DNA from: Eledone cirrhosa
Taxonomy: Eukaryota
Length of the DNA stretch: 64,000 nt
Reading direction: 5' to 3'
NCBI GenBank assembly: GCA_964016885.1
Contig: OZ024742.1
Location: 270,878,001-270,942,000, forward strand
The notes beneath the pieces were generated by a model that did not search any database, was not told the DNA's origin, and worked only from the letters and a program-made list of their open reading frames with translations. Positions within the stretch are counted from its first letter, which is position 1. Each line of letters begins with the position of its first letter. The translations under genes and the position numbers were made by a program. This document shows positions 1-60,830 of the stretch, piece after piece.

Positions 1-3000
1 GGAGTAAGGTCGATCTTCCGGGACATGGACGGTAAGTTGGTGGTCCTGGATGTGAGCAATAGCGAAGGTGGTGCCTTTAGACTGCTGGCCGGGTACACCC
101 CTACTGGAGTCGGACGACCAGACATATTTAGGCCCCTAGAATCCTTTCTGGCTACGTCTCGCCCTTTACTGTTAGCGGGTGACTGGAACGGCATCTTAGA
201 CGCACGATGGGATTGTGTGGGAGTAGCTGGTGTGGACGGTGAAAAAGCCTAAAGCACCTAATCAGCCAATTCCAGGTGTCTTACAGATACCGACTAGATT
301 TCCACAATGCGCCAGTGTGGACGTCGACCGCCGCATAGGGTCATCTAGATCGTATATAGATAGGATCTTCAATAGGAAAATTGATAGAAAAGTGTAGGCT
401 GCCCATTTGCTTAAATGGTCGCCTATTCAGATCATAAATTTGTGATCTGAATAGTCGACCTAGATAATACGCGTAGGTTACGACCTGCTTATTGGAAGCT
501 GAACAAGTCATTTCCGGCACGTAAGTCTTACAGGGACCGAGTCAACAATTTAGTTAAGCAAAAGTTGACACGGAGGATCTTCAATAACAGATGGTGGTGG
601 TGGTGGTGTGTGTATGTGGGGGGGGGGGGCTTCTCAAAAGGCAGATATAGAGTAACTTCGATAGGGTTTAGCAAAGAAGTAGCGCTAGAGAAAAATAGAA
701 AGTGGGGGAGCTGGTGATAAGTTAGACGAGGCTATTTATAATGGCATTACAATGGACGTACTAGCGGGGAGAATGGCGATAGACCATTTTTTCAATGCGA
801 AACACGAAGGTTACATTGTCAGAGCTAAGGCATGTGCGCTGAAAGACGAGGGAACCAAAGCTGTTCGATGGGCCCGCGTAGCAAACGCGCTGCATGGTAA
901 TAAAACCACAATTCGGTCTTTAGTGTACCGAGACGGACACCAGGTAAGCGATTCCAAGCAGAAGTGTGAGGCCATTCGCCTGCACTTTGCTCGGATGTTC
1001 GGCGAAAGTGGCGGGTCAGATACAATAGAGGACTACAGTCCCTACCTTGACGGCTTGCCGGGCATTTCGACGGTTGACGCGGAGAGCTGCGAAAGGACGA
1101 TTACTTCAGCCGAAATTCAGGATGCCCTTGTCGGCAGCATGAAGCGCAAATCACCAGGTTTGGATGTCCTGCCCTACAAGCTTTACGTAAATATGCCAGG
1201 CTTGTTCTCCGATCTCCTCGAATCACTCTACTGCAACTGGCAGGAGAATGGAAGTATTCCCAGTTCTGTGTGCGGGGGAGTCCTGACGCTGATAAGGAAA
1301 AACTAGAACAAGATGGATACATTAGACAACTTCACGCCCATAACTCTGCTCAACACAGAGTTTAAGATATTGGCCAAGGGTTAGCAAAGAGATTGGAGCT
1401 TGTGGTCGAGGATTTGGTTGGGGAGGCGCAAACTTGCGCAATCCCAGCATGGTCCATACACAATAACCTTCGCCACATGCGATACACCATTTAGTGGGTT
1501 GGGTGTAAACCTGGCTTCGGTGGGGCACTGATCAATTTATATCAATCAAAAGCCCATACCGTCCAACAGGGTCGTGGGGCGCTGGACGGACGGACGGGTA
1601 AAGTTGCTCGGGGTTTGGTTTGGACCAGACCTCCAGGTGGAAAAGAATTGGGACGAGGTAACGAGCAGAGTAGCCAGTCTCACCCAAAAATGGGCTGGGA
1701 GGAAGCTATCACTGAAAGGTCGCGCGGAGGTGGCGAATGCGTACATCGCGTCCGTCATCTACTACCGCCGTACCGTCGTGCCATGTCCCCGTCCGCGCCT
1801 TGTCAAGCTGGAACGGCTCCTCTTCAAATTCTTGTGGAGGGGACATGTTCCGTTGGTGAGGCGGTCCATCTGCTGCCAGCACCCTCTACGCGGAGGGCTG
1901 GGCACGCCGGGGATAATGATGCGCAGACATGCGTTGAGGCTGCGACATCTCCAGATATTCAGCCTCAACGGTGAACAGGTGTGGTCGCCGTTTATCAGAC
2001 GGACCTTTCCGCAGCTCATTTCTTTGACTGAGCTGCAGTCCTGGGTCAAGAAGAGACCGAGACTGGGTGACTGGCACCTGGAAAGTTGCCAGGCACTCAC
2101 TGCCCTCTACCAAGCGGGCAATGCGATCAGTGGAACTTCCACTCTCGAGTTCTATAGAGGATTAGTGGTGGGCAAGTGCGATGACGCACTCGGAGAAGCT
2201 TTGGCCTCGACGAAGTCGAACTGACCAGTCTGTACCAAAGGACTTTTGAGCCGAGGACGATGGACAATTTCCAGAAATCCCTCGCTTGGTAGTTGTACCG
2301 GGTGGCACTGCCGGTTCTGGATAAGCTCTACAGGCACGGAAGTGCTGTCAGACGGACCTGCACAGGATGCGCACAGATCGACGAAACCGTTCTGCACGCA
2401 CTTGTCCAATGTCCGTGCATTACTAACTTGTGGAGTTATGTCGAACAGCTACTGTCGCGTGTAGAACGAATCCAATTATCGGCCGAGTCCATAGTGAAGA
2501 TCGATTCACCGCCTTCCTTAGGTCAGGAAGAGCAGGAAATGTTCCTCTGTTTGGTGGCAGTTGCGAAAGAGATTATATGGTGGACCAGGTTGAAAGGACT
2601 AAAGACATACACTTTTCTCTTCGGCCAATCCCTCATCAACTTCTTCAAGTTTCACCTGGAAAGGAAGGTGAGGGTGGAGAGAGAAGTTCTTCCCCCCAGT
2701 ACATTTGCTAAAAGGTGGGTGAATGTGGCGAGAATGGCTCGTGTGAATAGGCCTACTCTGACCATGCGCCTATAGGCTGGCTAACTTGAGGAGAGGGGTG
2801 CTCTCCCTGGGTGCCCTAGAAGCGCAGGGTGGTTCAGGATTGGTGGGGTACCCGAATCACCCCAGGGTCGTCCACCCCCTATCGGGCAATTTTTTTTGTT
2901 ATATTTATGCATAGTTTATTTTATATGTTTATATTTTCATTGTTAAATTAGTCTTGCCATTGTGCACTTTTACTCGACCTTATTGTAAACTTCCACTGTC

Positions 3001-7140: not shown

Positions 7141-8451
7141 AATTGATAAAGTGATGAATAACATGGTCAACACTACAAAAAAAGGGATTTATTTATAGTC
7201 TAACAATTGTTTCTCTGATTAAGTTGTCTAAAAATTGCTGAACACTAGAAGCAGTGCCAATCAATTTCAAATACGATGTTAGCTCACTCAGTTCATCAGA
7301 AACTGTTACAAAATATATATATAACCGGCAAATTTACAAATTCAAATTACATCATTAATAATAAAGATAGAGAGTGAACAAAGAAAGAAAGGGATATAGA
7401 TAAAGAAAAGAAAGAAAGAAAAATAAACAAAAATAAAAGAAAATGAAAAAGAGAAAGAAGAAGAAAATGGAGAAGTGAATACAGAGAAAAATATAGAGAG
7501 AAGAAAATATATGGATAACTGATGATTTAAAGAGGAGACACATGCCTAAGGAGAAATAACTGTTTCTACTATTGGCACAAGGCCAGAAATTACCCAGTAC
7601 ATTACTGGTACTTTATTTTATCGACCCCGTAAGGATGAAAGGCAAAGTCAACCTCGGCGGGATTTGAACTCAGATCGTAAAGGGACGTAACTATGCTGGA
7701 AAGCATGGCGTCCGACCCTCTACCGACCCCGTAAGGATGAAAGGCAAAGTCAACCTCGGCGGGATTTGAACTCAGATCGTAAAGGGACGTAACTATGCTG
7801 GAAAGCATGGCGTCCGACCCTCTACCGATACTGCCAATCCACTGCCTAAGGAGAAATAACGTAGGAGATAAAGAGCAATAGAGGGAAAATGATATCAACA
7901 ATAAATGAATAAACGTTAGTACATGAATAAATGTAAATAAAAAATAAATAAATAAGTAAATAAATAAATAGATAACTTACATCTCATATGATATAAAATG
8001 GTATAAAATGTGAAAAATGAAAAACGAAAATATGAAAATAAATAAGTAAAAATATATAAAATGTGTGAAGAAAATTTAAACATTAAGATTATTGAGAGTG
8101 GTTTTTGAATGTGGCTAAAATAGATAGAGATACGAAGGTGTAAATATGATAATGTTAAATATATTTATGTGTGTATTGGTTATTTCAATAAATAAATTAA
8201 TTAATAAGTTGTAAGTTATATTATATGATAAAATAAAATGCCAGAGATGAAATAAATTAAGGGCGAGAAATATAGAGATATAGAGTAATATGTTCTGATG
8301 ATCTGATTGGGCTAACATCGTATTTGAAATTGAGTGGCACTGCTTCTAGTATTCAGCAATTTTTAGACAACTTTATTAGAGAAACAATTGTTAGACTAAA
8401 TAAATCCTCTTTTTGGTACCGTTGACCATGTTATTCTTCACATTTTCAATT
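7141..8451. mobile_element. Non-coding element with ~160-bp inverted arms, each carrying a hammerhead (inverted pLTR-like)
   Basis: 7141-7300 is the reverse complement of ~8293-8451. HHR on minus strand 7197-7304 (agttt-CTGATGA..GAAAC-aatt-GTT-agact) and on plus strand 8291-8397. Confidence 0.8.
7561..7842 (-). mobile_element. tRNA-headed SINE (family A) with internal ~100-bp tandem duplication
   Basis: 18-bp TSD tgcctaaggagaaataac at 7543-7560 and 7843-7860; B-box-like GAGTTCAAATCC on the minus strand; same family as 27500, 30110, 47382, 59709. Confidence 0.9.
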
Positions 8452-8464
8452 ATATATATATTTA

Positions 8465-8643
8465 TAGGAAAATGTTCAAGACACCGACGGCAGAGCGCAA
8501 GCCGTTTCGACGGCTATTTCGAAACGGTTTGAGCTCTGCCGTCAGGGTCTTGAACATTTTCCTATTACCCACTATACTACCCAAAGTATTGAGTACTCTG
8601 GTGCGTTATGGTCCACCTGGTTCCTTACCACACTTCCTTCGTT
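8465..8643 (+). repeat. ~180-bp hairpin-plus-tail dispersed element (family H), copy 1
   Basis: Hairpin 8465-8564 followed by conserved tail attacccac..ggtgcgttatggtcca.ctggttccttac; flanked by TA tracts. Confidence 0.85.
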
Positions 8644-12028: not shown

Positions 12029-12224
12029 ACGAATGAAATGTGCTAAGAAACCAGATGGGCCATAACGCACTAAAGTACTCAATACTTAGGGTAGTAGAGT
12101 GGGTAATAAGAACAAGTAGGACCACGACGGCTGAGCTCAAGCCGTTGCGACGGCTAATTCTGGACGTCCAGAATTAGCCGTCGAAACGGCTTGAGTTCAG
12201 CCGTCGGGGTCCTACTTGTTCCTA
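12028..12224 (-). repeat. Family H element, copy 2
   Basis: Near-perfect ~114-nt hairpin at 12109-12222 plus the same tail in reverse orientation; TA tracts on both sides. Confidence 0.85.
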
Positions 12225-21360: not shown

Positions 21361-21538
21361 TAGGAAACGTTTTGATCCCGACGGCAGATCTCATGCCGTT
21401 TCGACGGCTATTTCTCAGAAGTGGCTTGAGCTCTGCCGTCGGGGTGAAACATTTTTCTATTACCCACTCTACTACAACAAGTATTGAGTAATCTGGTGCG
21501 TTATGGTCCATCTGGTTCCTTACCACACCTCCTTCGTT
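21361..21538 (+). repeat. Family H element, copy 3
   Basis: Hairpin plus conserved tail, between TA tracts. Confidence 0.85.
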
Positions 21539-25625: not shown

Positions 25626-26080
25626 AAGTGAGTCCTTCATCAGTGACCCTCCAACCGTCCTGGGCATTTCATCGCTTTAAGGGCCATATGCCTCGGGTTG
25701 GTGCGAACAACGGCTAAAAAAAGTCGTTGGTACACGTAAATAAAGGGGGACGCCAGAGTAACAACAAAAAAGTTTTAGCAACGGAAAGTGAGTAGAAATA
25801 GACAAGTCCCAGATCTCTATGAATATAAACTCTGTGAAATCGTGAACAAGAGACAAAAGACCATCAAACCTGGTTGAAATGTGAGCAAGGAAAGAATTTC
25901 GCCCAAGTTTGACGGGGGGAAAAAAGAGAGAGAGAAAAAGGAGAGAAGAGGAAGAAGAAGAAGAAGAAGAAGAAGAAGAAGAAGAAGAAGAAGAAGATAA
26001 AGGGGTCTGTTCCACGAATTCAGTAAACGTAAGTTTTGTGAAGTCGCAGACGAAAGAGAGAGAGAAAAAAATTCCATATA

Positions 26081-26290
26081 TATAGTTATGTAATAAACAA
26101 CATAAGACAATTAGTCCATATACCAAAGGTTTCACGAAGACAGACGAGCTCGATATAGACGTCTGAAATCGTTCATCAGAATGAACTTTATTTGATGAAC
26201 GATTTCAGACGTCTGTGTTGAGCTCGTCTGTCTTAGTGAAACCGTTCGTAAATGGAATAATTGTGTTATGTTGTATATTACATAACTAAA
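26081..26290. repeat. ~210-bp fold-back made of two back-to-back hammerhead copies
   Basis: Minus-strand HHR 26116-26184 (CTGATGA..GAAAC ctttg GTA) and plus-strand HHR ~26188-26255 (TTGATGA..GAAAC cgttc GTA); outer flank homologous to 4162-4200. Confidence 0.8.
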
Positions 26291-26736
26291 TAGCTCTGTA
26301 TCCTACATAGAACACTCTCCTTTCTTTTACCATTGCTATATGTATGTATAATTATATATATTTATATATTGTTCGTGATCAACAGCTAAATGCTATGACA
26401 GATCCTACCAAAATTACTCTGGACTGAAAAAGTAGCTGCTTACTTAAAAATATATAGGCGTCAATATAAAGAGACATAAGTAGCTATATAATTATGTATA
26501 TAAACCTTCTCGTATTTCTAAACTACCCGTCCTTTCTTTAAACAATAATGATATATTTCTAAAAGGAAAGCACAATCAACTCTAGGCGGCCAGCTTTTTT
26601 TCTTCTTATGTGTGTGTGTGTGAACATGTGCGAAATTGTGACATCTACGCATATTTTGCCCGTGGCACATTGTGTCCTTGGACATATTTTATGTTGTTGA
26701 GACCAATTAACTCAGCAATTTAAACTATGGAAATCA

Positions 26737-27207: not shown

Positions 27208-27497
27208 ATTTGATAATGCCTAAAATGCTGAAACCGGTAATAGACAATTATTAAATATATAAATAAATAAATAAATGCCATTTTTAATTAATAAATACAT
27301 TAACTAATACCTTAACACTTCACACAAAGTAAAATATTTTGTTTTAAACATTTTCTAACCCAGAAAAAATAGAAAAGGTTAGAAGGAAAAACATATTGTT
27401 TTTCCTAATAATCTTCTTTTTCTCCCTATTTTCACATATATATATATATATATATATATATTCCAACTCGTGTGTTCCTTCTCCACATTTTAGATGA

Positions 27498-27648
27498 TTT
27501 CCAGCATAGTTACGTCCCTTTACGATCTGAGTTCAAATCCCGCCGAGGTTGACTTTGCTTTTCATCTTTACGGGGTCGACAAAATAAAGTACCAGTAATG
27601 CACTGATATAATTGCTGGCCTTGTGATTAAAGTAGAAACAATTATTAT
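27498..27648 (+). mobile_element. SINE family A, 5'-truncated
   Basis: ttccagcatagttacgtccc..ggggtcgacaaaataaagtaccag..gaaacaattatta. Confidence 0.88.
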
Positions 27649-30109: not shown

Positions 30110-30300
30110 AGGTGAATTGGCAGTATCGGTAGAGGGTTGGACGCCATGTTTTCTAGCATAGTTACGTCCCTTTACAGTCTGAGTTAAAATCCCGCCGAGG
30201 TTAACTTTGCCTTTCATCCTTACGGGGTCGATAAAATAAAGTACCAGTAATGTACTGGGTAATTGCTGGCCTTGTGCCTAAAGTAGAAACAATTATTATT
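30110..30300 (+). mobile_element. SINE family A, full length
   Basis: A-box-like TGGCAGTATCGG and B-box-like GAGTTAAAATCC; likely TSD ttattatttagg at 30101-30112 and 30293-30304. Confidence 0.9.
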
Positions 30301-31794
30301 TAGGCTGAATGGACAGTTTTTTAAACTCTTGAGTTTTGCTCTTCCTCACAGGCGAAACTCAAAAGTAAGAATCTTACATTTTAGCCTTGATAATAATGAG
30401 TATATATATCGTTGGTATGACATTAAACTCCATCCAGTGGCAAGGCTGGGTGGAGTTATCCCTTAGCTGTTATCACTCCCCGGTCTGCTCTGGCCCGGTG
30501 TAGTAGTAACTGTTAGGGCCCCATTTATGGGTTAAATAATTACCTTATTCGAGTGACGCCGATAAGGCATTATCAGCCACTGAAAAGAACCATGTCAGGA
30601 ATATTGGCCACCCTATATCTATCTATCCATCTATTTATATATAAATGCAAGTTTACGATTCTTTGTGTCCGCCTAAAACTAGCAAACTACCAGACTAAAC
30701 TCCTCAAAATTACATGTAAAAATTCACTATACGGTCGAAAAAGTTTTACTTTGCAAAGCAAAGAATTCATTTAAATTTAATTTATCTTATTGTCTAATGA
30801 ATATCAAAAGAGATCATTCATTTTGTTTTTTTTTTATGTTCTCCGGTCTGTAGATAAGAGAGTGAGGAATGGGAGAGAGAAAGAGAGAGAGAGTAAGGGA
30901 TGAGAGAGAAAGAGAGAGAAAGTGAGTGGATGGGAGTAAGGGGATGTGAGAGAGAAAGAACGAGAGTAAAGGATGAGAGAGAGAGTGGTAGATGGGAGTG
31001 AGAGAGAGTAAGGGGATGTGAGAGAGAAAGAAAGAGAGTAAGGGGATGAGAGAGAAAGACGATGAAAAAGAGAGTGGGAAAGTAACCAGCGTTCTTAACT
31101 TTTATTTATTTATTATTTTTACACACTTTTTAACTCTCCCGCTTCCCTAACGTTATTTATCTTTTCTTTATTTTTTGTTTGCTATTCTATAGAGGATGAG
31201 AAAGAGAAAGAAAGAGAAAGGGAGTGAGGCGGATGGGGAGAGAAAGACAATAAGAAAAGAGAAAAGATGGGAGTGAGAAAAAAAGTAAAGAGCCAGGAGA
31301 GAGGGAGTGTTATTGGAGGCATTCTTTACCTAACGTGTGTCCGCGTTTATATATATATACACACACAGATGTGTGTGTTATGGGAGGCGGGGCGGGGCGT
31401 TCTTTAGCAGACGATATATGTTACCATCAAAGCTTATTTTCTACATATGTCTAAAGAAATCACAGATGTATGTATTTAACAGACAACAAATAAACGGTAT
31501 TTTTAAAAGTTATTATTTGAATATATTATTTTCCGCTGTTATTTTAATTAACACAGAAAATATTTTTGTTGTAGTGTTTGTCGTTTTTTTTTGTTTTTTT
31601 TAATTTTTTTTTTGGGGGGGGGGGGACCACGATAATATCAGAATGCGATCTGAAATCCCAATATTTTCTACATATGTCTAAAATGAATTACACCTAATAT
31701 ACATTCATATAAAGAGATCATTTAAAACAACTTTACTGAGTGAACAATACATTCTATAGTTGTTTCTATTTCGGAAAGAGTGTGGTGTGTAATA

Positions 31795-31860
31795 ATTGTT
31801 TCTACTTTTGGCAGAAGGCCAGTAATTATTCCAGTGCATTACTGGTACTTTATTTGATCG
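31795..31860 (-). mobile_element. 3' fragment of SINE family A
   Basis: aattgtttctac..ggccagtaatt..cagtgcattactggtactttattt.atcg. Confidence 0.75.
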
Positions 31861-31886: not shown

Positions 31887-34800
31887 ATGCCTAGAAAACG
31901 TTCCAGATCATTATATGGATGGTCATCTTCAGAGGCTAAGAGAAAGCAAACAGCGATCTGAAGAAGGTGAAGAAGTTCGGCATGCCCGTCTAGCTGCTAA
32001 CAGAGCCCAAACAGCTTTAGCGCGAGCAGACCGTTTTGATGAAAGGGAACAAACGACTGCTGCTACACGAGAACAACAAATTAAGGAGCAGCAGCAAATC
32101 AGACGAAATGCTAATCAAGCACATCGTTCTACTGCCCGAGCAGGAGAAGAAGCCACAAGTAAAATGTACTGGCTGATGGGTGCTTTTTCTTATGACCATC
32201 AAAAGGCCTACAAGAGTAATCCACAAATCAACATTGGGAAAATGAAAAAATGCTGCCAGTATTGTGGTGCCTAGAAGTAGGAAGCAGAAACACCAAGTCT
32301 ATGCTGCTCAAAAGGCAAAGTGAGCCTTAAAACAATACAAGAACCTTCTGAATTTCTGAAGAATCTACTCCTTCAGCATACACCAGAAGAACGACACTTC
32401 AATAAATACATCATAAAATATAATTCTGCCTTTCAAATGACATCTTTTGGGGTTGACAGGAATGTGATTGACTTTAGATTCTGTACAACTTATACAATTC
32501 AGGGACAGCGTTACCAATTAATGGGTGGGCTTCTACCACTTTCACAGGAGGCTCACAAATTTGTGCAGGTTTACTTCATGGGTGGAAATGAAATACAAGC
32601 ACAACAAAGATGTACCAATGTCCATTGCAGTCCTACATAGTCATAAAGTTACAAGAAATGCTTCACCAACATCATATCAGTGTATTTAAATATGCACTGG
32701 AGCATATGAACAACACCAGAGATCGTAAAATCAACATTAGGGCAGACAAACGCCCAGCTTCAGAACATGAATGCAGATTCAATGCACCTGTCACTAATGA
32801 AGTTGGAATCATAATGATTGATTAGCAGCATGAACGACGTGACATTGTTTTGCAAAAACGAAGTGGACATTTGGAGCGAATTTGTGAAGCTCATAGAGCC
32901 TATAATTCACTCCAATATCCGCTCATCTTTTGGAATGGTCAAGATCGATATCATTTTCAGCTACGGCAGATCAACCCAGGAACGGGACAAGAAACTGGAC
33001 GATCAATCAGCTGCAAATAATTCTATGCTTAACATTTCATGTTACGTGATCACTTCAACCAAGTTCTGTGATTCAAAGAAGTAACCAGCCAGTTCATTGC
33101 GGACATGTATACCAAAATTGAAACAGAAAGATTCGGTTTCCTGCGAAGGAATCAAACTAAGTTGAGGGCCGATAACTACATCCACCTTAGCGATGCCATC
33201 AATTCTGATGTTGACCCAAGAATTATTGTCCAGCCAGCCATACTTCCATCAAGATTCACGGGAGGTCCACGTTACATGCACGAACGTACGCAAGATGCCA
33301 TGGTCTATGTCAGAAAATTTGGTCGGCCAGATCTCCTCATTACATTTACATGCAATTCAAACTGGTCAGAAATATCAAATGAATTATTTCAAAATCAAAA
33401 ACAAAAGGATCGACATGACCTCATTGCTCGGATTTCCCATGAAAAGCAAAAAAACAAAACAAAAAAACTCATCTGGCTCCTAAAAGAATGAAGAATATTT
33501 GGTTAGTTTAGTGCGTGGATAACCACTATTGAGTGGCAAATGAGAGGTCTTCTTCACTCTCACACACTAATCCGGTGCAAGGAGAAGATAAGACCAGATG
33601 ATGTTGATAAGATCATTTCAGCAGAGTTGCCTGATAAAGGTGGTGATCCAGCACTCTTTGAAACCATAAAGTCCAAACCCATTCATGGTCCATGTGGAGT
33701 CATCAATCCAGCCTCTCCCTGTATGAAAGATAAATAATGCAGCAAACGTTATCCTAGAGATTTTATTCGGAAAACTCGGACTGACAATAATGTATACCCA
33801 TTTTATCGTAGGCGTAGACCAGAACATGGAGGCAATACTGCAAGCCTAACTGTTCGAGGAGAGGAGCTGACCATAAACAACCAGTGGGTCGTCCCACACA
33901 ATAAATTATTATGTAAACTGTTAAAAGCTCATATCATATGTTGAGTATTGCAGCACCATCAAGGCATTCCTATATGTCACAAAATGGATCAACAAGGGCA
34001 GTTAGATGGCTACCTTTATTACTGACAAAGAACTCAATGATGGTGGGCTGGATGAGCTCAAACCGTATCAAACAGGTCGATACATCTCCAGCAATGAAGC
34101 TATCTGGCGAATATTTGGATTTAATATCCACCAATGCCACCCAACAATGGTCAACCTCTTAGTCCATCTGGAAAATGGAGAGAGAGTGTACTTCACTGAG
34201 ATCACTGCTCATCAGTTGGGACAAGCATCACATGACACTACACTAACTGATTTCTTTAAACTCAGCCAGATTTATGAATTTGCTAGATACCTCCTATATG
34301 CTGAAGTCCCAACATACTACACCTGGACCAATTGCAAGACCTGGAATCGAAGAAAGCAGGGTCATTTAGTGGAAGGTCATGAAGTCAAGTCAAGTGATGC
34401 TATTGGGCGTGTTTACAATGTCCATCCCAACAACAGAGAATGTTTTTATTCATGGCTACTTCTGTATACTTTTCGAGTACAAGCGTCATTTGAGGATATT
34501 AGGTGCTTCAGACGAAGGGAGTGCGCAACATACCAAGAAGCATGTAAACAGCATGGACTCCTGCATGACAATGAACACTGGAAGATGTGCCTAAAAGAAG
34601 CACCAATCACTCAAGTAACCAGTCAAATAAGACAATTATTTGCTATTATGCTCACAGCATGTGGAATTTATGAAGCTCATCTACTCTGGCAGGAGTACAA
34701 AAACAATATATCGGATGACTATCTACACCTAGCCTGAAGACATCATGGCAATATGTATATAGAATATACCCCCAGGATTTACAATCAAGCTCTCTGTGAC

Positions 34801-36313
34801 CTGTCCCATCGAGTTCAGGCAATGAATAGCACATTAGCTAACTGCGGGATGCCAGAGCCAGATGAAGAAATGGAGGTAGCACAAGACATTTCTCAGGAGA
34901 CAAACTACGATATTCAAGCATTGCGTAAGTTTGTGGATGAAAATGAACCTCGATTGATGGATGACCATAAATACGCGTACTACATCATCGAAAATATTCA
35001 AAATGACTGGGGTGGATTGTTCTTAATCGATGCTCCTGCTGGCACAGGCAAGACGTTCCTCATAAACCTCCTGCTTGCAAACGTTCGCCAAAAGCAAAAT
35101 ATTGCCCTTGCTGTGGGTTCAAGTGGCATTTCAGCAACACTTCTGGCTCTGGCTGGAGAAAGAACTGCATCCTCCGTGTTTAAGCTGTCCATAGATCTCA
35201 CACGGCATGAACAATCTTTTTGCAACATCAAGAAGAACTCACCCAATGGCAAGTTTCTGCAAGCATGCAAGATGATAATTTGGAAAGAAGCTATTATGAG
35301 CCATAAAGGAGCAATTGAAGCTTTGGACCGGACGATAAGGGATCTGAGAGAAAATAGTTGCATAATGGGAGGAGTGACAATGGTTCTTGCTGGTGATTTC
35401 AGACAAACTCTGCCTGTAATTCCTCGAGTGACTCGAGCTGATCAGGTCAGTGCCTGTCTGAACACATCCTATCTCTAGCCCCGCTTTCAGCTGCTGAACC
35501 TTACAACCTACATGCGAGTGCACTTAACCGGTGACGAAGGTGTCAGTGAGTTTTCCATCCAACTACTTAAATAGGGAAATGGACTTCTAGAAAAGGACTC
35601 CATTGAGCACATTTAGTTGTGTTTGGTCATATCATTGGCACAGAACAAGAACTGATTGCCAGAGTGTTTCCAAACATTCAGACCAGACAAAGTGATCCGA
35701 AATGGCTCTGTGACCCAGCAATCTTAGCACCTAAAAATGTTGCTGTGAAAGAAATCAACAGAAGGCTGCTGGAGATGTTACCGGGAGAGAAAATATGTTA
35801 CAAATCAGTTAACACAATCACTTCTCAAGATCAGGTTGTAAACTATCCAACTTAATTTTTGAACAGTCTTGAACGAGCGGGAATTCCTCCACATAACCTG
35901 ATACTGAAGCTTGGAGCATCGGTTATGCTACTTCGCAATCTGGATCTTCCAAAACTTTGTAATAGCACAAGACGCATCATCAAAAATATGATGTCCAATG
36001 TTCTAGAGTTGCAATCATGTCAGGAAAATTTGCTGGTGACAATTGTTTCATTCCCAGAATACCTCTGAAGCCAACTTATTTGCCATTTGAATTTCAAAGA
36101 CTTCAATTTCCGATCAGGCTCAGTTTTGCCATGACCATTAATAAATCTCAAGGGCAATCATTGAAAGTCGTTGGGTTGAATCTGGCAGATCCTGTCTTTT
36201 CTCATGGTCAACTCTATGTTGGCACAACAAGGGTTGGGAACCCTGATTGTTTCTTCATTGTGGCACCACAGGGCAAAACCAAGAATGTTGTTTATCCAGG
36301 GGCTTTGGAATGA
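31887..36313 (+). pseudogene. Helitron RepHel (HUH Rep plus PIF1-family helicase), disrupted
   Basis: Starts MPRKRS. Motifs: Zn region C.YCGA..CC..GKV; GGPRYM..GRPDLLITFTCN; [14 protein letters not shown]; GRYISSNEA; Walker A APAGTGKT; GDFRQTLPV; FAMTINKSQGQS; FSHGQLYV. Numerous stops and frameshifts. Confidence 0.95.
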
Positions 36314-44129: not shown

Positions 44130-47100
44130 ATGAATGTATAGTATATACAGAAAGGACAATAGATATTCCATTCATTTGAAATCTTTTAAATAATGCTTTC
44201 TCTATTAAGCTCAAGGGTTGACATAAACCAGGGCAAGTGTCCTGTCCAAGTTTTCGACCTCCAATTTACAGGCACATACTCAGACAAGGCCCATTCATTC
44301 GGCCAATTTTTACCTCTCACCCATTTTTCAACAAATTTCTGGCAAGAGAGTACTTCTATCACCACCCTGCCTTTCCTTTTCAAATAAAATTTTAAAAAGT
44401 TAATCCAGGAATCACCGGAGAGGTAAGTGCTCGTCTTCAGAACTTTCAAATGCGTCCAACACACGACCTCTTTTGCCAAGTCGGCCTGGCAGATAAAAAC
44501 AGTCGGCCCTTCGCGGCTGAAGGAACGTGGCGGGGCAATCCTTACGATGGACTCAGCTGATAGCCGGATCCGTCCTACTTGCAACAGCAGGGATTCTACA
44601 TAAACACACAAGTCAGCAATGCTCGGACGTGGGACGAGTGCGTGGAGGGCGATTTGGTCAACAAGATGGACAGCCTGATCATCGGAGCATGTCCCTTCCA
44701 AAATAAAGCGAAAACGCAAATGCCTCAGCAGAGTTAGGCGGCGTTTAGGAGAAGGCGCGGCGTCAGGCGGTAGTAGATGACGAACGTTATGTACGCGTTC
44801 GCCAGCTCCAATTCACCTTTCGGGGATAGCTTTCTTTCGGCCAATTTCTAGGCGACAGGGGGCCGACCTTCTCGTCACCTCTTCCCAGTTTTTGTCCCTC
44901 TGGAGGTCCGGACCGAACCTGACGCCTAGCAATTTAATCGGTCCGTCCGTCCAGCGTCGTCTTGAATTTCCAGGTGCCGAGCCGCAGGCCCACCGATTTT
45001 TCCTGGTTGATCATTTCTCCTGTCACCGCCTCGTGTTCTCTTAGTGTTGTGCCGATCGACTTGATGTGCTTGCCGTTCGACACGACTACTGTGACGTCGT
45101 CTGGAAATACTGACACGGTCCTTCCGCATCAACGTACGCACGGGATCCCCTCAACGTCTCCAGTTCGTGCAGTAATGGATCGAGCGTCAATAAGTACAAC
45201 AGGGACGAAATGGAACATTATTGGTGAACCGTGCGCGTGATATTGAACGGTTCCGAAAGGTGACCGTTGACTCTCACCAAAGAGCAGATGTCGCTGTGCA
45301 TGGCAGCGATCCAGATTGATGAAGGACCCATCGGTTCCACTTTCCCTAACTCCACACTCTCAGATGCATCGCATGAGGTGGAGGTTGTCGTTGATGGATC
45401 TGTCTGGAATAATGGCGTATATGTGCGCCTCTCCCACTAGACAAACGACGGCAAGCTCCAACCTCTTTGCTAGCATATTGGCCAACATCTTGAATTCCGT
45501 GTTTAGCAGAGTTATTCGCCTGAAATTATCTATGTTATCCTCCGAACGAGGAGGATAAGATAGATGAGCGCCACCGCTTCTCGGGTCACGTAGCTGAGAA
45601 TACACACGTTCTACTGCCAGTTTGAGTAGACGTCCGGTAAGGGGTTTCCAACAAGTCTGACATGTGTACGTAAAGTTCGTAAAGCAGAACATCCCAAAAC
45701 AGACGATTGACCTATTGTGCAGCCAGTCATTGCCTGCCGTATTTCAGCGGCTGTTATCGGATCTTCGCAACACTCCGCCTCAGCGGCCGAGAGCCGCAGC
45801 AGTCCGTCGAGGTAGGCACTAAAGTCCATCCCTCGATCTGTCCCACCGCTGCCCGGAACAGCTGAGCGAAATGTCGCTGAAAAGCTTCGCGCATTTGCCC
45901 GGGATCGAGTAGCATGCGCCCGTTGTGGTCCACCAAACTCCGGATCGTGGCTTTATTGCCACGAGGCGCCACCACCACTCAGGCCCATTGAACGGCCTTC
46001 GCCCCCTCGTGTCTGAGAGCACGCATCCTAGCTCTGACAAAGCAGCCTTCGTGCTTTGTATTGAAGAATTGGTCAAGGGCCAATTTCGCCGCAAGTACGT
46101 CGGTCGCGATGCCTTTACTTAGCGCCTCGTCTAATTTTCTAACTAGTTCTCCCTCTGCTCTATTTTTCTCTATTGCTAAAGCCTTACTAAACCTCATGGA
46201 CTCTATTCTAATCGCTCTTTTCAAAGAAAACCACCATTCGTTGTTGACGATGGCTCCCGTCAACGCCCGCTTAACTAATTCATTAATCCGGTCTCCGAAG
46301 GCCATCCGTGCTGGTAAGGACGCGTTTAGCTTCCAGTATACGGGTCCCTGTCTATGAAGCCTATCTAAGTCAACCTCACAGATCACGAATTTGTGGTCCG
46401 TGTAGTCGACTATTTTGAAATGTGGACAGCCTATGCTTAGACCTATCTATTTCCCTTCAAAATACCCTATCTAGATATGATCTGGATGACCCGATGCAGT
46501 TTGTCTATGTCCACATTGGCACATTCGGGAAATCCAGACGGTTCCTATCAGTAAGTTGAAACCGTCTGAGTATGTTTGCGAGGCATTTACACCCTCCTCC
46601 CCTACCCGCTAATTCCACACAGTCCCAACGTGCATCTAAGATCCCGTTCCAGTCGCCCACTAACACAAAAGGCGGGACGTTTGAAGAAAGGTCTCCAGAC
46701 GCTTGAAGAAATCAGGCCGCCATGCTCCTGTCGGACAACGACCACCACGAGCCCGAAAGCTTGCTCGTCTCCGCTGGTCACGTGCAGCACCACCAACTTA
46801 CGTTCTGGGTCCAGGAAGATGGCCCGTATGGCGTGATCCAAACCTCTACGAAAAAGCACAGCAACTCCTCCACCCGATCCAGGACGGCTGGGAGATGCGT
46901 ACACATCTTAGCCACCGAAGATCAGTGCAAAGGCCCGTGCTTCGGAGATTCTGGTCTCACTGATGACCACCACATCTATGTTTAGTGACCTGAGGTCGTT
47001 GAGCAGGTGTCCCTGCTACATTGACGGCCCCAGGCCACGCGAATTTATGCTGCCTATTCTGAGTCAGGTCATGTTGAAAAGGAGTGTAAAAAGATGGGAA

Positions 47101-49412
47101 AGACCACTTACCTCAGTTCTCGTAGAGGAAGGATGGTTTCACCGTCCTTCTCACTGCTTGTGGTCTCCTCCGGAAGGATGTCCTTATAAATCCTCCTGGA
47201 GACTGTTTGTCGGAAGTCTCTGATGTGCTAGGGGAATTTTAATTTTAGTGTCATGTAAGTTTTCTGTGTGATTTGTATCTGTGGAGGTAGTGTGAACTTT
47301 TGGGGTGTTGTGTAGTCTTTTTCTGTGATGCTGGTGTTGTGTTGGATGTAGTTTAATAATTGGTTGTTGTTCAAATTTAATTGTTTCTACATTAGGCACA
47401 CGGCCAGCAAATACCCAGTGCATTACTGGTACTTTATTTTATCGACCCCGTAAGGATGAAAGGCAAAATCAACCTCGGCGGGATTTGAACTCAGATCGTA
47501 AAGGGACGTAACTATGCTGGAAAGCATGGCGTCCGACCCTATACCGATACTGCAAATCCACCGCCCTTCAAATTTAATGCTGTGTAGTGTGTATTGTTTT
47601 GGTTGTTTTGTGTTGTTTGCGTTTGTTGTGGGTTTGTTTCTGTTTCGCTTTTTGGTGACTTTTGTGGTGTTTGGTGATGGTGGTGTTGGTGTTTGTGGTG
47701 ATTGGGTTGGTGATGCTGGTGTGGATGGTGGCATAGCTGTCCTAACTTTTTTTTAAATATTTTATTTGTTTCCTTCTGTATTTTGTTTTTGGACGATGAA
47801 GGAAGGGGATTTCATCTTTTTTGGCTTCTTTTTCTTTTTTTCTTTTTTTTCCTGATACAGTTTCCCACTCCTCGTCACAATCTGTCTCAACTTGCGATAG
47901 ATCGGGGAGTTGAAAATCCTCCACAGGCGTTGGTTTGGTTGTGGTGTGGTGGATGGTGTAGGCGCTGGTGCTATTTCTGGCGCGGTGTGTGATGGTGGTG
48001 TTGATTTTGTTACTGTTGCTGGGGTTGTTGCTGCTACAGTTGCTTCTGTTGTTGCTACCATTTCTGCTGCTGGTGGTGTTGATGGTTGAGTCACTGGAGT
48101 GGGTAAGAGAATGGCCTCAACTTTTTAGCCTGAGGGCAGAAAGCCTTTGGGTGGGTTCCTTCACCACAGACGACACACCTAGGCCTTCTACCCTCGACGA
48201 TTACTGTGAGGTGGCTGCCGTCAGTGAGGGCTATTTCTTCTGGGATTTCCTCAATGCTTTTTTGTTCCGCATGGATCAGGAGCTCCATCCCAGCTTTGCT
48301 TTTGATATTTCAATTATTTTGGTGCTGGCCTCGATGCCAGCGAGGGCGGCAACCATTACCCAGGAATTTCGATTGCCGGTAGGACGTTGGTCACCCTGAT
48401 CTTCACGAGTCTCTGGCCACAATAGATTGGGGACGAGTGTGAAGTTGTGGCTTCTTAATGGGTCCATGTAGTGCTCTCTGGCCTCCTGTGGTGTTCCAAA
48501 GAAGACGTCCACGGTTCCATATTTCTGCCCACCTCTGATGTGGGTTTTTTCCGGCCACACATGTCCCAAAGCTTTTTGGATTTGTGACTCGGCTGCCCGT
48601 TCCACTCGGCGTGATTTTGTGTTAATCGTCCGATAAGACACTGTGCATAGGCGGCGATGCTCCATTTTATTATTTGGGTGAGGCTGACCCTGTACCCATC
48701 GTTCTTCACCATTCTCTTGGCTTCATTTAATTCTTCCTGAATTACCTCGATTGTTTCGCATTTCTTCGCTGCTTTGGCAAACGACAAATTTGTGATAGTG
48801 TTGATGTTTTTGTTGTTATTCTCATTGTTGTTGTAGCTGTTGTCGTTATTATTATTTTTGTTATTGTTATTTTAGTTTCAATTGTGGTGGTAGTGGCGTC
48901 AGTGGTGTTCGGTGTGGAAGAGTCGATTCTGGGTGAATCCATTTTGATGTCACGAGATAATAATGTATTTTTTCTTTTGTTTCTGTTGTCGCTGTGGTGG
49001 TGTTGGGGGTGGCGGCTTTAACACCTGCAGTTTTTGGTAATGGCGGGAAATGAATGTATGCATGAAACAAATTTAAATTATTGCTACTGCTTATATTTTT
49101 AGTGTTGGCAGACGTAGTAATATTTACAATGGTGGTGTTCGTGTGAGGTGTTAGTTTGTGAGGAAGGCTGTCAGCCTGGTGTAGCTGTGAGTCGTCCATA
49201 ATTTGTTCAAATAAATTTGTGTATGATAATTATAAAGATTTAAATTTTGGGCTCAAGGCCCCAATCTTTTTGAGTGTCCTTTTCCGAAAGCAATATATGT
49301 GACCTTATAAAGACTTAACAACAAAATGTTTCCATAAATGGCAATTTTAAACAACTGAAAACAACAAACCTTTGCGGAGATCACGATAATACGATTTCCT
49401 ACGTAGGTCGCC
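44130..49412 (-). mobile_element. Near full-length degenerate Tx1-clade LINE (ORF1 plus APE-RT ORF2)
   Basis: ORF1 ~47740-48790 with CVVCGEGTHPKAFC knuckle. ORF2 from ~47070: IGSINSRGLG, GGGVAVLF, YWKLNASL, NFRRITLLNTEFKMLA, FPDDVTV. Homologous to 1-3095. Confidence 0.9.
47382..47566 (-). mobile_element. SINE family A, full length, inserted in the Tx1 element
   Basis: 12-bp TSD ttcaaatttaat at 47370-47381 and 47567-47578. Confidence 0.92.
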
Positions 49413-51699: not shown

Positions 51700-51705
<6 letters not shown>

Positions 51706-51865
51706 AAGTAAGTGTGATAAGGAACCAGGTGGACCATAACGCACCAGAGTACTCGATACTATGAGTAGTAAAGTGGGTAATGGGAAGAGAGTCAGGACAC
51801 CGATGACTGTTCAGAAATAGCTGTTGAAATGGCCGGAGCTTAACCGTCGGGGTCCTGTCTCTTTT

Positions 51866-51869
<4 letters not shown>
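51700..51869 (-). repeat. Family H element, copy 4
   Basis: Same tail (gaaccaggtggaccataacgcaccagagtactc) and an internally deleted hairpin; TA tracts on both sides. Confidence 0.82.
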
Positions 51870-51944
<75 letters not shown>

Positions 51945-57790: not shown

Positions 57791-58406
57791 TGTGTTGACA
57801 CAACCAATACTAACAGCATGAAAATCTCTAACTAGCTGCGAATGGTCATCCAGATAGATACTGGCAATACTAGCAGCAGAGACCTTCCTTACTAGCTTCT
57901 AATGGTCATCTAGCAGAAAAATAAACAAATAAATGTTGCAGACCAACTACACAAACACCGATTAATACCTTACTCTGAAATCTGCATTTCTCACTGCACA
58001 TACATACATCAAAGCAGATATGTACATATACAATACCAATAATCACACCTACGCACACACATTTTACACCCTTACCCTGAAATCTGCGTTCCCCACTACA
58101 CATAGACACTTACGCACACGCACACACATACATATATCATAGACATACTCACACACATTTTTCCAATCGCATTTTCGCAAACAACATTAAACTTTAAAGT
58201 TTTATTTCATACAATCACATGAAATGGAGCAGCCATGAACAACACATCTCATATCATATTGCTCTCTGAGACCCACACCCACGGACACCCTTTCATAATG
58301 GATGGTAAATCCGAAAATATTCGGGATCATTAACGTTGCTCGGTGTTCAATCGGGGGTAACCCCAGTAAGTAAGGTACACAATACATAGCAGATTATAAT
58401 AATTTG

Positions 58407-58521
58407 ATATAGAAATGGCTTTTACAGGAGTAGAATTGTTTCATTCGGTAGAAATCATCAGGAAGCCCTGATGATTTCTCCGAATAAAACAGTTCTACTC
58501 CTGTAGAAGTAATTTCTATAT
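58407..58521. repeat. ~115-bp fold-back with two back-to-back degenerate hammerhead cores
   Basis: aatcatcagg aagc cctgatgatt centre; minus strand CTGATGA-tttc tacc gaat-GAAAC-aatt; stem I absent. Confidence 0.7.
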
Positions 58522-59399: not shown

Positions 59400-60830
59400 T
59401 TAATTAGGTTTATAATATTTGAAGGTTCTTCTAATTCTATGATTGCAAGATATAATTAATTCCTGTCGCTTATTTAATAGGATATCCTTAGATTTCATGA
59501 TTTCAAAAAGTTCTTGGGTGCATAACCTACACTCGTATCTAGTATTTTGATAAGGTGTGGCCCTTTTGAGCACGCTCCTGGTCAGGTTATAATCGATGTT
59601 CTTCTTTCTATAATTATTAATTGTTTCAGCCAAGGATGTTGTATCTAATGCGGCATTTTTAAAACTATGTTTGTGGGTATTAAATCTTACTTTAAATCTT
59701 ACTTTAAACTATGCTTTCCAGCATAGTTACGTCCCTTTACGATCTGAGTTCAAATCCCGCCGAGGTTGACTTTGCCTTTCATCCTTACGGGGTCGATAAA
59801 ATAAAGTACCAGTAATGCACTGGGTAATTGCTGGCCTTGTGCCTAAAGTAGAAACAATTAAATCTTACTTTAAATCGGTTAGACGTAGTGCAGTCCTTAG
59901 TGCTAATATTACATTTATATACTATGTTATTAATAAGACAATTTCCCTTTAATGGGCAATTTCTTTTGATTCTACAGTTACAACCATTCGTGAATATTAT
60001 ATCAGGGGAGCTAGTTAAATTTGGTGTGGAACTTACTGTACATGTTATAGGTGAAGGAGGTGGTGGTTTGTTATGGTTTATTTTAGTATTATTATGGTTG
60101 GTTTGATGTGTTGGTGGTATATTTATGGTCATTTTACACTTATATGCGTTGTACGCACTTATAATCTGTTGTAAATTTGTGGTAGTGGAGTAGGAGAATT
60201 TGACTGTAGATCTATTTAAAATTTGATGGTATTTATGGTTTGGTGGGAAGTTTTTCTCTAGGATAGCAAAGAAATGTTTAGGGAAATTGTCTTATATTGT
60301 TTCTTATATTTATACGATGTATCAGGAGGTTTACTAAGAGAGTTACTATTAGTGATTTTATTATATATAGGTTTAGTTAGATTAACTGATTTAGGTGTTT
60401 TAGTCTGATTACTAGGAATTTTGTTAGTAATGTTGTTAACATATGTTGGAGTATTAGGATAAATGTTTTTTTTTTAAATCATTATATTTTATGTGAGCAG
60501 AGGTAGAGAAATTAAGTTTTAGGTTGGTGTTTTTAGGTGTAGTATGAGTGGCATTTAGGTGTGGGTTTTCATTTGGTGTTTGTTGGTAATATTAGGTTGT
60601 ATGTTTGAAATATTATTGGTGCAAGGTATGTATACTAATTTGTTTTTGTGGCCACTTCTAGCTAAATCTTCGTTATAAAAGGGCGCGTTTTTATCGAATA
60701 CATCCTGATTCGATGAAAGGTTAGAGATTCTGAGTGTGATATTATATGCCACGTTTTTTAAGGATAGATCTAGGGAGATTGGATTGTGAGTGTGTGTAAT
60801 GCAAGTTTTGGTTAGATTATGGTAAGTTTG
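59400..60830 (-). pseudogene. PLE remnant (RT thumb plus GIY-YIG)
   Basis: RISNLSSNQDVF; CNCRIKRNCPLKGNCLINNIVYKC; FKVRFN.HKHSF; CRLC..LLNKRQELIISCNH. Confidence 0.88.
59709..59856 (+). mobile_element. SINE family A, 5'-truncated, inserted in the GIY-YIG remnant
   Basis: TSD attaaatcttactttaaatc at 59679-59698 and 59857-59876. Confidence 0.9.

What the first reader, a model, noticed from the sequence alone, without database searches (positions are those of the whole stretch)
8465..8643. Family H: palindromic mini-element carrying only the 3' half of a hammerhead, with arms that differ between copies but stay self-complementary
Seen: four copies (8465, 12028, 21361, 51700), all between TA tracts, sharing a ~80-nt tail and the same outer boundary (aggaa..ttcct). 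The outer arms differ between copies (aaatgttcaagac, acaagtaggac, aacgttttgatc, aaagagacaggac), yet each pairs with its own partner arm. The arm reads gccgtc-GAAAC-ggc ttgagctc. gcc-GTC-ggggtc, i.e. stem II 3' strand, GAAA, a stable stem III and a GUC triplet, but there is no CUGAnGA box. The hairpin centre falls at the putative stem II loop. Inference: the 5' arm is regenerated by snap-back synthesis primed at the ribozyme's stem II during each insertion. Alternatively the RNA is a split-hammerhead substrate cleaved in trans by a strand supplying CUGAnGA.
Basis: partly seen in the sequence, partly recalled or inferred. Interest (0 to 1): 0.8.

Follow-up and report, generated by a model that had tools for sequence, protein, structure and literature searches.

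The report
Tiny head-to-head Penelope retrotransposon insertions
These hairpins are the shortest insertions of a Penelope-like retrotransposon whose full-length parent carries a complete hammerhead-shaped motif, and each is likely made when two short DNA copies of the same RNA, started on the two strands of a TA repeat, are joined head to head, which gives a way to test how this class of jumping genes builds its inverted repeats.

Summary
The four copies are real, but they are neither a half-ribozyme element of their own nor products of stem II snap-back. They are ultra-short insertions of a 3.2-kb Penelope-like element (PLE) with Hydra-clade motifs, found full length in the same genome. The parent's 3' end holds a whole type I hammerhead fold with a U3-A8 core (UUGAnAA), which a CUGAnGA search misses. 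Long sense copies end at two fixed sites, A (base of stem I) or B (about 80 nt later), the known PLE 'tail' signature. Each insertion has two head-to-head arms. In 22 of 25 long insertions picked without regard to the tail, one arm ends at A and the other at B. Centres are nearly all different (62 of 66), and arms match their own partner best. No arm (0 of 82) has the centre that stem II snap-back predicts. Inner ends pile up at one site inside stem II (78 of 158 arms within -3..+3), likely the transcript start; no RNA data were available. Two sister families in the window show the same anatomy. Known kind of structure; the one-tail rule and the start-site boundary bear on an open mechanistic question.

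The parts
8467..8518 (-). Copy 1, tail-less arm: short copy running from site A back to about +9 of the inferred transcript
8519..8643 (+). Copy 1, tail-bearing arm: about +17 to site B (+140)
8521..8543 (+). 3' half of the hammerhead core in copy 1: GAAA, stem III with a palindromic loop, GUC triplet
   Evidence: parent fold
8548..8559 (+). Subfamily-variable segment, which folds as the internal loop of stem I in the parent hammerhead
8560..8565 (+). Site A (TCC|TAT): first fixed 3' end of element copies, with a TAT match to the TA target
8566..8643 (+). PLE 'tail' between sites A and B; in the full-length parent it runs on into the 5' UTR ahead of the ORF
12029..12165 (-). Copy 2, tail-bearing arm (+2 to site B)
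12166..12224 (+). Copy 2, tail-less arm (+2 to site A); joined to the other arm with no loop
21361..21415 (-). Copy 3, tail-less arm
21423..21537 (+). Copy 3, tail-bearing arm (starts at about +24)
51702..51803 (-). Copy 4, tail-bearing arm (starts at about +40)
51809..51870 (+). Copy 4, tail-less arm (+2 to site A)
26079..26340 (+). Sister family 2: same head-to-head, one-tail anatomy with a canonical CUGAUGA hammerhead core
58340..58521 (-). Sister family 3: same anatomy, canonical core

Best explanation
The element is an ultra-short insertion of a Penelope-like retrotransposon, made of two head-to-head arms that likely are two short cDNAs primed on the two strands of a cut TA repeat, one at site A and one at site B of what is probably the same RNA. 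[quoted passage not shown] Inferred: both cDNAs read through the uncut GUC, run off the RNA 5' end at an initiator-like site inside stem II (likely the transcription start, so a transcript from there has only the 3' half of the ribozyme), and are then joined end to end, with trimming, short microhomologies or filler bases. The segment that differs between copies is the subfamily-variable internal loop of stem I; both arms agree because they likely share a template.
For: Parent: full-length copy L131, whose sense arm starts at about +5 behind an inverted short arm and ends at site A. Its frames show RWR, DKT, YRDD, CxCx5C, VIY..YIG, CxxC and CxH. One of its ORF pieces found 868 homologues; 53 of 54 listed full-length ones share the linker and the C-terminal motifs. 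Hammerhead: copy L035 folds as a three-way junction, -30.3 kcal/mol, z -2.2; 41 of 68 spanning copies have the core TTGAAAAG. A/B rule: 22 of 25 long insertions picked by 3' UTR or ORF have one A and one B end (binomial p 7.8e-5). In the mixed, mostly tail-selected set, 88 of 95 pairs are A/B and 4 of 95 carry a tail on both arms. Sister families: 20 of 21 and 21 of 22 pairs have a tail-less partner. Same template: stem I loop within 1 edit in 47 of 64 pairs against 8.4 expected; 20 of 203 rare letters shared with the own partner against 3.9 expected; long arms closer to their own partner than to the median other arm in 14 of 14 scored. Inner boundary: 54 of 158 arms end at +1/+2, 78 within -3..+3 and 11 further upstream (89 of 95 pairs used, 6 with long arms left out). 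A purified PLE protein cuts and extends both target strands, starts at two sites that bound the tail, is predicted to be a dimer and uses uncut RNA (PMC11167929).
Against: No RNA was seen, so the start site is inferred. The initiator-like match is weak: 17 such matches in 540 nt. A copied cap G is only hinted: 19 G, 13 C, 1 A before +1 ends, many supplied by the partner arm. High arm concordance would also follow from fold-back or from later conversion between arms, and palindrome centres can delete after insertion. Three of 25 long insertions break the rule (L046, L131, L135). Long arms beat the best other arm in only 9 of 14. In families 2 and 3 the boundary lies just upstream of the core, so 'start inside the ribozyme' is not general. 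Rfam finds no hammerhead here, and some subfamily copies have a C3-A8 mismatch, so catalysis is unproven. In PMC11167929 initiation needed no homology to the target, whereas here both sites carry TAT.
Confidence: 0.7

Rival explanations
1. Fold-back of one cDNA: the B-primed cDNA reaches the RNA end, adds a few untemplated bases, snaps back on itself and copies to site A, where it joins the other target strand. The first reader's version primes at stem II; PMC3846280 proposes self-priming on an antisense template.
For: Explains arm concordance, new centres and the A/B asymmetry; 36 of 88 pairs have inner ends within 4 nt of each other.
Against: The stem II version fails 0 of 82. In 27 of 88 A/B pairs the tail-less arm reaches at least 5 nt further upstream than the tail arm, in 13 by 20 nt or more, so neither arm contains the other. 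Long sense copies end at A on their own and about half of the long insertions have the tail on the inverted arm. L007 and L176 join arms of two different recurrent subfamilies.
Confidence: 0.12
2. Two separate RNA molecules are copied by a protein dimer, one per target strand, with a built-in asymmetry of start sites; the RNAs may pair through the palindromic stem III loop.
For: Chimeric pairs L007 and L176, and the discordant L006 and L020; PLE hammerheads are proposed to act as dimers (PMC4209133).
Against: Arms share rare letters five times more often than chance and reach 97% identity where the best other copy is 85-90% (L077, L081, L137). This needs one source locus to dominate in each cell.
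Confidence: 0.12
3. A non-autonomous hairpin element (MITE- or SINE-like) copied whole from master palindromes, whose centres later decay.
For: High copy number and a constant outer boundary flanked by TA (84 of 95 pairs have TA repeats on both sides).
Against: 62 distinct centres in 66 pairs, with repeated centres falling in different subfamilies where both could be typed; left arms do not cluster with left arms (0.117 against 0.119); there is a continuum of arm lengths up to the full element; the tail lies outside the inverted repeat.
Confidence: 0.04
4. Split hammerhead: the mini RNA is a substrate cut in trans by a strand that supplies the missing core.
For: A transcript starting at +1 would hold only the 3' half, and the 5' half exists in 3' UTR transcripts of the parent.
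Against: It does not explain the structure; the inserted cDNAs read through the GUC, so their template was uncut; no evidence of cleavage was obtained.
Confidence: 0.05

Closest known systems
Hydra clade of Penelope-like elements (PMC8557442; passages and section 11 read)
   Same: C-terminal GIY-YIG, DKT, CxCx5C linker, CxxC and CxH at the C terminus, hammerhead in the pLTR, (TA)n targets; an inverted 5'-truncated copy and a tail at one end only are described as typical of PLE insertions.
   Different: RWR rather than RWK; 3.17 kb with a long 3' UTR against 'generally under 3 kb'; U3-A8 core; tail about 80 nt against 30-40; insertions dominated by 150-250 nt minis.
PAc (Poseidon from Anolis) two-site internal initiation (PMC11167929; parts 1-2 of 4 read)
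   Same: Two start sites bound the tail; both target strands are cut and extended; uncut RNA is the template; the sites lie shortly after the hammerhead.
   Different: That work found no difference in start site between strands and no homology to the target; here the two ends of one insertion almost always use different sites, and both sites carry TAT.
Minimal PLE hammerheads, including the U3-A8 variant of Schistosoma (PMC4209133; parts 1-2 of 4 read)
   Same: U3-A8 core swap, long stem II with unpaired bases after its first pair, palindromic loop 3, pairs of motifs on opposite strands 100-700 bp apart.
   Different: Stem III here is stable (4-5 bp); the minis lack the 5' half; no cleavage test.
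Adineta vaga Penelope inverted pLTRs with junction palindromes (PMC3846280; passages read)
   Same: Head-to-head inverted pLTRs, optional tail on one of them.
   Different: That paper favours self-priming on an antisense template; the non-nested arms and the A/B rule here fit two primers better.
Non-LTR retrozymes (10.64898/2026.07.22.740005; part 1 of 5 read)
   Same: Short non-coding PLE derivatives related to the pLTR hammerhead.
   Different: Retrozymes are head-to-tail tandem units, each with a whole hammerhead; these are single head-to-head insertions without one.
L1 twin priming (recalled, no call)
   Same: Two target strands prime on one RNA and give an inversion.
   Different: L1 arms cover different parts of the RNA and the second site is variable; here both arms cover the same part from two fixed sites.

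Membership tests
Penelope-like element, Hydra clade (parent) | Single ORF with RT followed by C-terminal GIY-YIG nuclease | tested here: met
   YRDD and VIY..YIG in order in L131 and L135, read by eye in broken frames; Pfam gave no significant hit on 6 ORF pieces
Penelope-like element, Hydra clade (parent) | DKG motif changed to DKT | tested here: met
   SDKTGN in L131; L135 reads SDITGN
Penelope-like element, Hydra clade (parent) | RWK motif near the N terminus | tested here: inconclusive
   LRWRT in L131: conservative change
Penelope-like element, Hydra clade (parent) | CxCx5C linker; CxxC and CxH around the conserved E and N; no CCHH | tested here: met
   CNCPDRSTC, CNLC, CKH, and one Cys only between VIY and YIG; 53 of 54 full-length homologues carry the linker and C-terminal motifs
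Penelope-like element, Hydra clade (parent) | Insertion into (TA)n | tested here: met
   84 of 95 pairs have TA repeats on both sides, the other 11 on one side
Penelope-like element, Hydra clade (parent) | RT phylogeny groups with Hydra references | not tested
   No named reference set was at hand; supplements of PMC8557442 were not read
PLE insertion structure | Inverted 5'-truncated copy and a tail at one end | tested here: met
   22 of 25 long insertions; 88 of 95 pairs
Type I hammerhead (parent 3' end) | Three stems around the core, stem I open-ended | tested here: met
   Fold of L035; 6 of 11 printed segments gave the three-way fold as their minimum-energy structure
Type I hammerhead (parent 3' end) | Core with a 3-8 pair, GAAA and NUH | tested here: met
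   U3-A8 core in 41 of 68 copies exactly, with variants mostly single changes; a C3-A8 mismatch in three copies from other subfamilies; no Rfam hammerhead hit
Type I hammerhead (parent 3' end) | Self-cleavage after GUC | not testable with these tools
   No RNA data
Non-LTR retrozyme | Tandem units, each with a complete hammerhead | tested here: not met
   Minis are head-to-head and lack the 5' half
MITE / TIR DNA transposon | Both ends defined by terminal inverted repeats, shared interior | tested here: not met
   Tail outside the repeat; 62 distinct centres in 66

The most novel reading that the evidence does not exclude
Tens of thousands of minis are a genomic footprint of the PLE insertion reaction: a dimeric RT-nuclease holds one RNA, primes one target strand at site A and the other at site B, and both cDNAs run to the capped 5' end, which in this family lies inside the hammerhead, so that the transcript's 5' ribozyme copy is disarmed by where transcription starts. 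This would explain the one-ended tail and the inverted repeats of PLEs in one step, without self-priming.
Probability: 0.4. Interest if true: 0.72.

Novelty: new member of a known kind. Interest (0 to 1): 0.46.

Why it matters
How PLEs form their tandem and inverted repeats is named as unresolved in PMC8557442, and the steps after priming are unvalidated in PMC11167929. Three families in one genome give a countable rule (one A end and one B end per insertion, arms from one source, a hard inner boundary) that a reconstituted reaction can test directly. For annotation, such minis will be mistaken for MITEs or miRNA hairpins, and U3-A8 hammerheads are missed by CUGAnGA searches and by Rfam. I did not find the A/B rule or the start-inside-ribozyme idea in five literature searches (listings seen, six papers read in part). 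The library lacks most subscription journals and I read no supplements, so this is not proof that it is unpublished.

Tried and rejected
Rfam on the window and on six loci: only miRNA-like and other chance hits, no hammerhead family. Pfam on six pieces of the parent ORF: nothing significant. Search for RNA runs: no RNA holder listed; no reads were laid, so expression and start site remain open. Earlier findings of this scan: none for this genome. A first loose pattern for the stem II snap-back centre gave 8 hits in 7 pairs that were pattern noise; a second try had an off-by-one error; the corrected test is. One conservation script timed out and was replaced; one script stopped part-way and was rerun. 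Inner ends at '-5' are alignment artefacts; re-scored the ends. Cap-G signature: inconclusive. TATA-like TATTTAT at -29: present in the main subfamily but changed in another, so not used. Helitron/Helentron and MITE readings were dropped once the RT/GIY-YIG parent and the variable centres were found. An early note called the parent Neptune-like; the motifs fit Hydra. A branch-point stop at -4 was considered but the spacing to the nearest AG is too short (recalled norm); not tested.

Full report
Observation. The four copies are at the stated places, between TA tracts, with a shared tail and arms that pair within each copy. The window lies on contig C3 of a 3.0-Gb genome. A search with the tail of copy 1 gave 1803 first-look candidates, of which 40 were scored, most 98-100% identical. 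In 51 unselected 10-kb stretches (510 kb) there were 8 hit clusters, 4 of them head-to-head pairs; a stricter motif count found 4 sites. That extrapolates to roughly 2-5 x 10^4 copies, with wide error.

The parent. Some tail hits ran further upstream. Following them led through a 3' UTR of about 700 nt into a coding region and to a full-length copy, L131, of 3172 nt. Its broken frames show RWR, DKT, YRDD, CxCx5C, VIY..YIG, CxxC and CxH, which match the description of the Hydra clade of Penelope-like elements (PMC8557442 section 11) except RWR for RWK. A 429-aa piece found 868 homologues, almost all unnamed; of the 54 listed ones of 650 aa or more, 54 have YxDD and 53 the linker and C-terminal motifs. 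Pfam gave nothing significant on six pieces. No tree was built.

The ribozyme. Upstream of the part kept in the minis, the parent has the missing half: the 5' strand of stem I, the core UUGAAAA, and the 5' strand of a long stem II. Copy L035 folds into a three-way junction with the GUC unpaired at its last base (-30.3 kcal/mol; z -2.2; 6 of 200 shuffles as good). The core is a U3-A8 swap, already reported for PLE hammerheads (PMC4209133); 41 of 68 spanning copies have TTGAAAAG. Against function: Rfam finds no hammerhead, 5 of 11 printed segments fold otherwise, three copies of other subfamilies have C3 opposite A8, and all arms that span it read through the GUC.

Outer ends. Numbering from the A of the AGTCCAG site in stem II as +1, long sense copies end beside TA either at +60/63 (site A, base of stem I) or at +140 (site B); both sites are followed by TAT in the parent. 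This is the PLE tail, which in vitro lies between two start sites of reverse transcription (PMC11167929). From 211 sequences (1.13 Mb, mostly chosen by tail, UTR or ORF searches) I obtained 236 distinct units, 95 of them head-to-head pairs: 88 have one tail, 4 have two, 3 could not be classed. For a test blind to the tail I took long insertions picked by UTR or ORF. Of 33 loci examined, 25 insertions had both ends readable; 22 have one A and one B end, with the tail on either the long or the inverted arm, 2 are A/A and 1 is B/B (p 7.8e-5 against independent choice, with three ends read).

Arms and centres. Arms resemble their own partner: 47 of 64 typed pairs are within one edit at the variable loop against 8.4 expected; divergence is 0.075 within against 0.117-0.121 between copies in 72 pairs, with no left-left clustering; 20 of 203 rare letters are shared against 3.9 expected. 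Long arms are closer to their partner than to the median other arm in 14 of 14 scored, and than to the best other arm in 9 of 14 (one of 15 had no own alignment). L007 and L176 join two different subfamilies. Centres are new each time: 62 distinct in 66. Snap-back at stem II predicts the sense loop II at the centre: 0 of 82 arms show it, 77 continue antisense and 5 are other. In 27 of 88 pairs the tail-less arm reaches further upstream than the tail arm, in 13 by 20 nt or more; neither arm can then be a copy of the other unless the centre was deleted later, which I cannot exclude case by case.

Inner boundary. Of 158 scored arms from 89 short pairs, 54 end at +1/+2, 78 within -3..+3, 69 further downstream and 11 further upstream. 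The sense arm of the full-length copy starts at about +5 and two other long copies at about -10 and +15. The +1 base is the A of a YYANWYY initiator match (consensus recalled), but 17 such matches occur in 540 nt. Penelope transcription starts within the pLTR (PMC2377424 passages). I infer a transcript start; no RNA run was listed, so this is untested. An extra cap-derived G is not established.

Replication in sister families. The window holds two more hammerhead palindromes, at 26079 and 58340. In 29 and 30 loci picked mainly by their tails, 21 and 22 had an adjacent inverted partner, tail-less in 20 and 21. Their inner ends are bounded just upstream of the core (-14 and about -6), so these minis can hold a whole hammerhead. 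For family 3 my reference reached only to -9, so that limit is not secure. I did not trace their parents.

Mechanism. Most likely the element's nuclease cuts both strands of a TA tract; one strand primes at A and the other at B on the same uncut RNA; both cDNAs run to the RNA 5' end or stop earlier; and their ends are joined head to head. Ends, parent, fold, A/B rule, concordance and centre diversity are shown; the single RNA, the start site and the joining step are inferred. Rivals are fold-back of one cDNA (0.12), two RNAs (0.12), master hairpins (0.04) and a split ribozyme (0.05).

Novelty. The structure (inverted truncated copy, tail at one end, TA targets, U3-A8 motif) is in print for PLEs, so this is a new member of a known kind. 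The counted A/B rule and the boundary inside the ribozyme were not found in five searches and make an open question testable. Papers were read in part as listed under Closest known systems; no supplements were read, and those of PMC11167929 and PMC8557442 may hold related end statistics. Interest 0.46.

Noticed in passing
window 26079-26340 and 58340-58521: Two more hammerhead-bearing families with canonical cores and the same head-to-head, one-tail anatomy; family 3 gave about 8 sites in 510 kb of unselected DNA. Parents not traced.
   Followed up: partly
L007, L135 and 7 other tail-bearing arms: 9 of 127 tail-bearing arms carry a one-base variant just after site A; two insertions with tails at both ends (L007, L135) have it, hinting that the variant weakens site A. 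Not tested.
   Followed up: partly
L173:1395, L207:1162, L224/L225: Copies of other subfamilies have C3 opposite A8 in the hammerhead core and a different loop II, while the +1 site is kept.
   Followed up: partly
L031-L060, about 200 nt upstream of +1: A splice-donor-like CAG/GYAAGT is conserved in the 3' UTR; Penelope has an intron in its pLTR. No spliced copy was looked for systematically.
   Followed up: no
L069:1819-1870; L044:1831-1938; L073:592-733: Template-jump products: a +1-to-A piece with an extra G joined to a truncated ORF, a duplicated tail from another subfamily, and a full-length 5' end preceded by 80 nt of 3' UTR.
   Followed up: partly
window 34738-35478 (+): ORF piece with a PIF1-like helicase domain (E 1.9e-42), likely a Helitron remnant.
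   Followed up: no
window 7555-7846, 27494-27646, 30111-30297, 31791-31860, 47375-47565, 59711-59863: A young repeat of about 170 nt, 89-99% identical between copies; unclassified.
   Followed up: no
window 143-1871, 44664-46691, 61662-62759: Three diverged copies (66-79%) of a long coding-like repeat; no Pfam hit on two ORF pieces.
   Followed up: no
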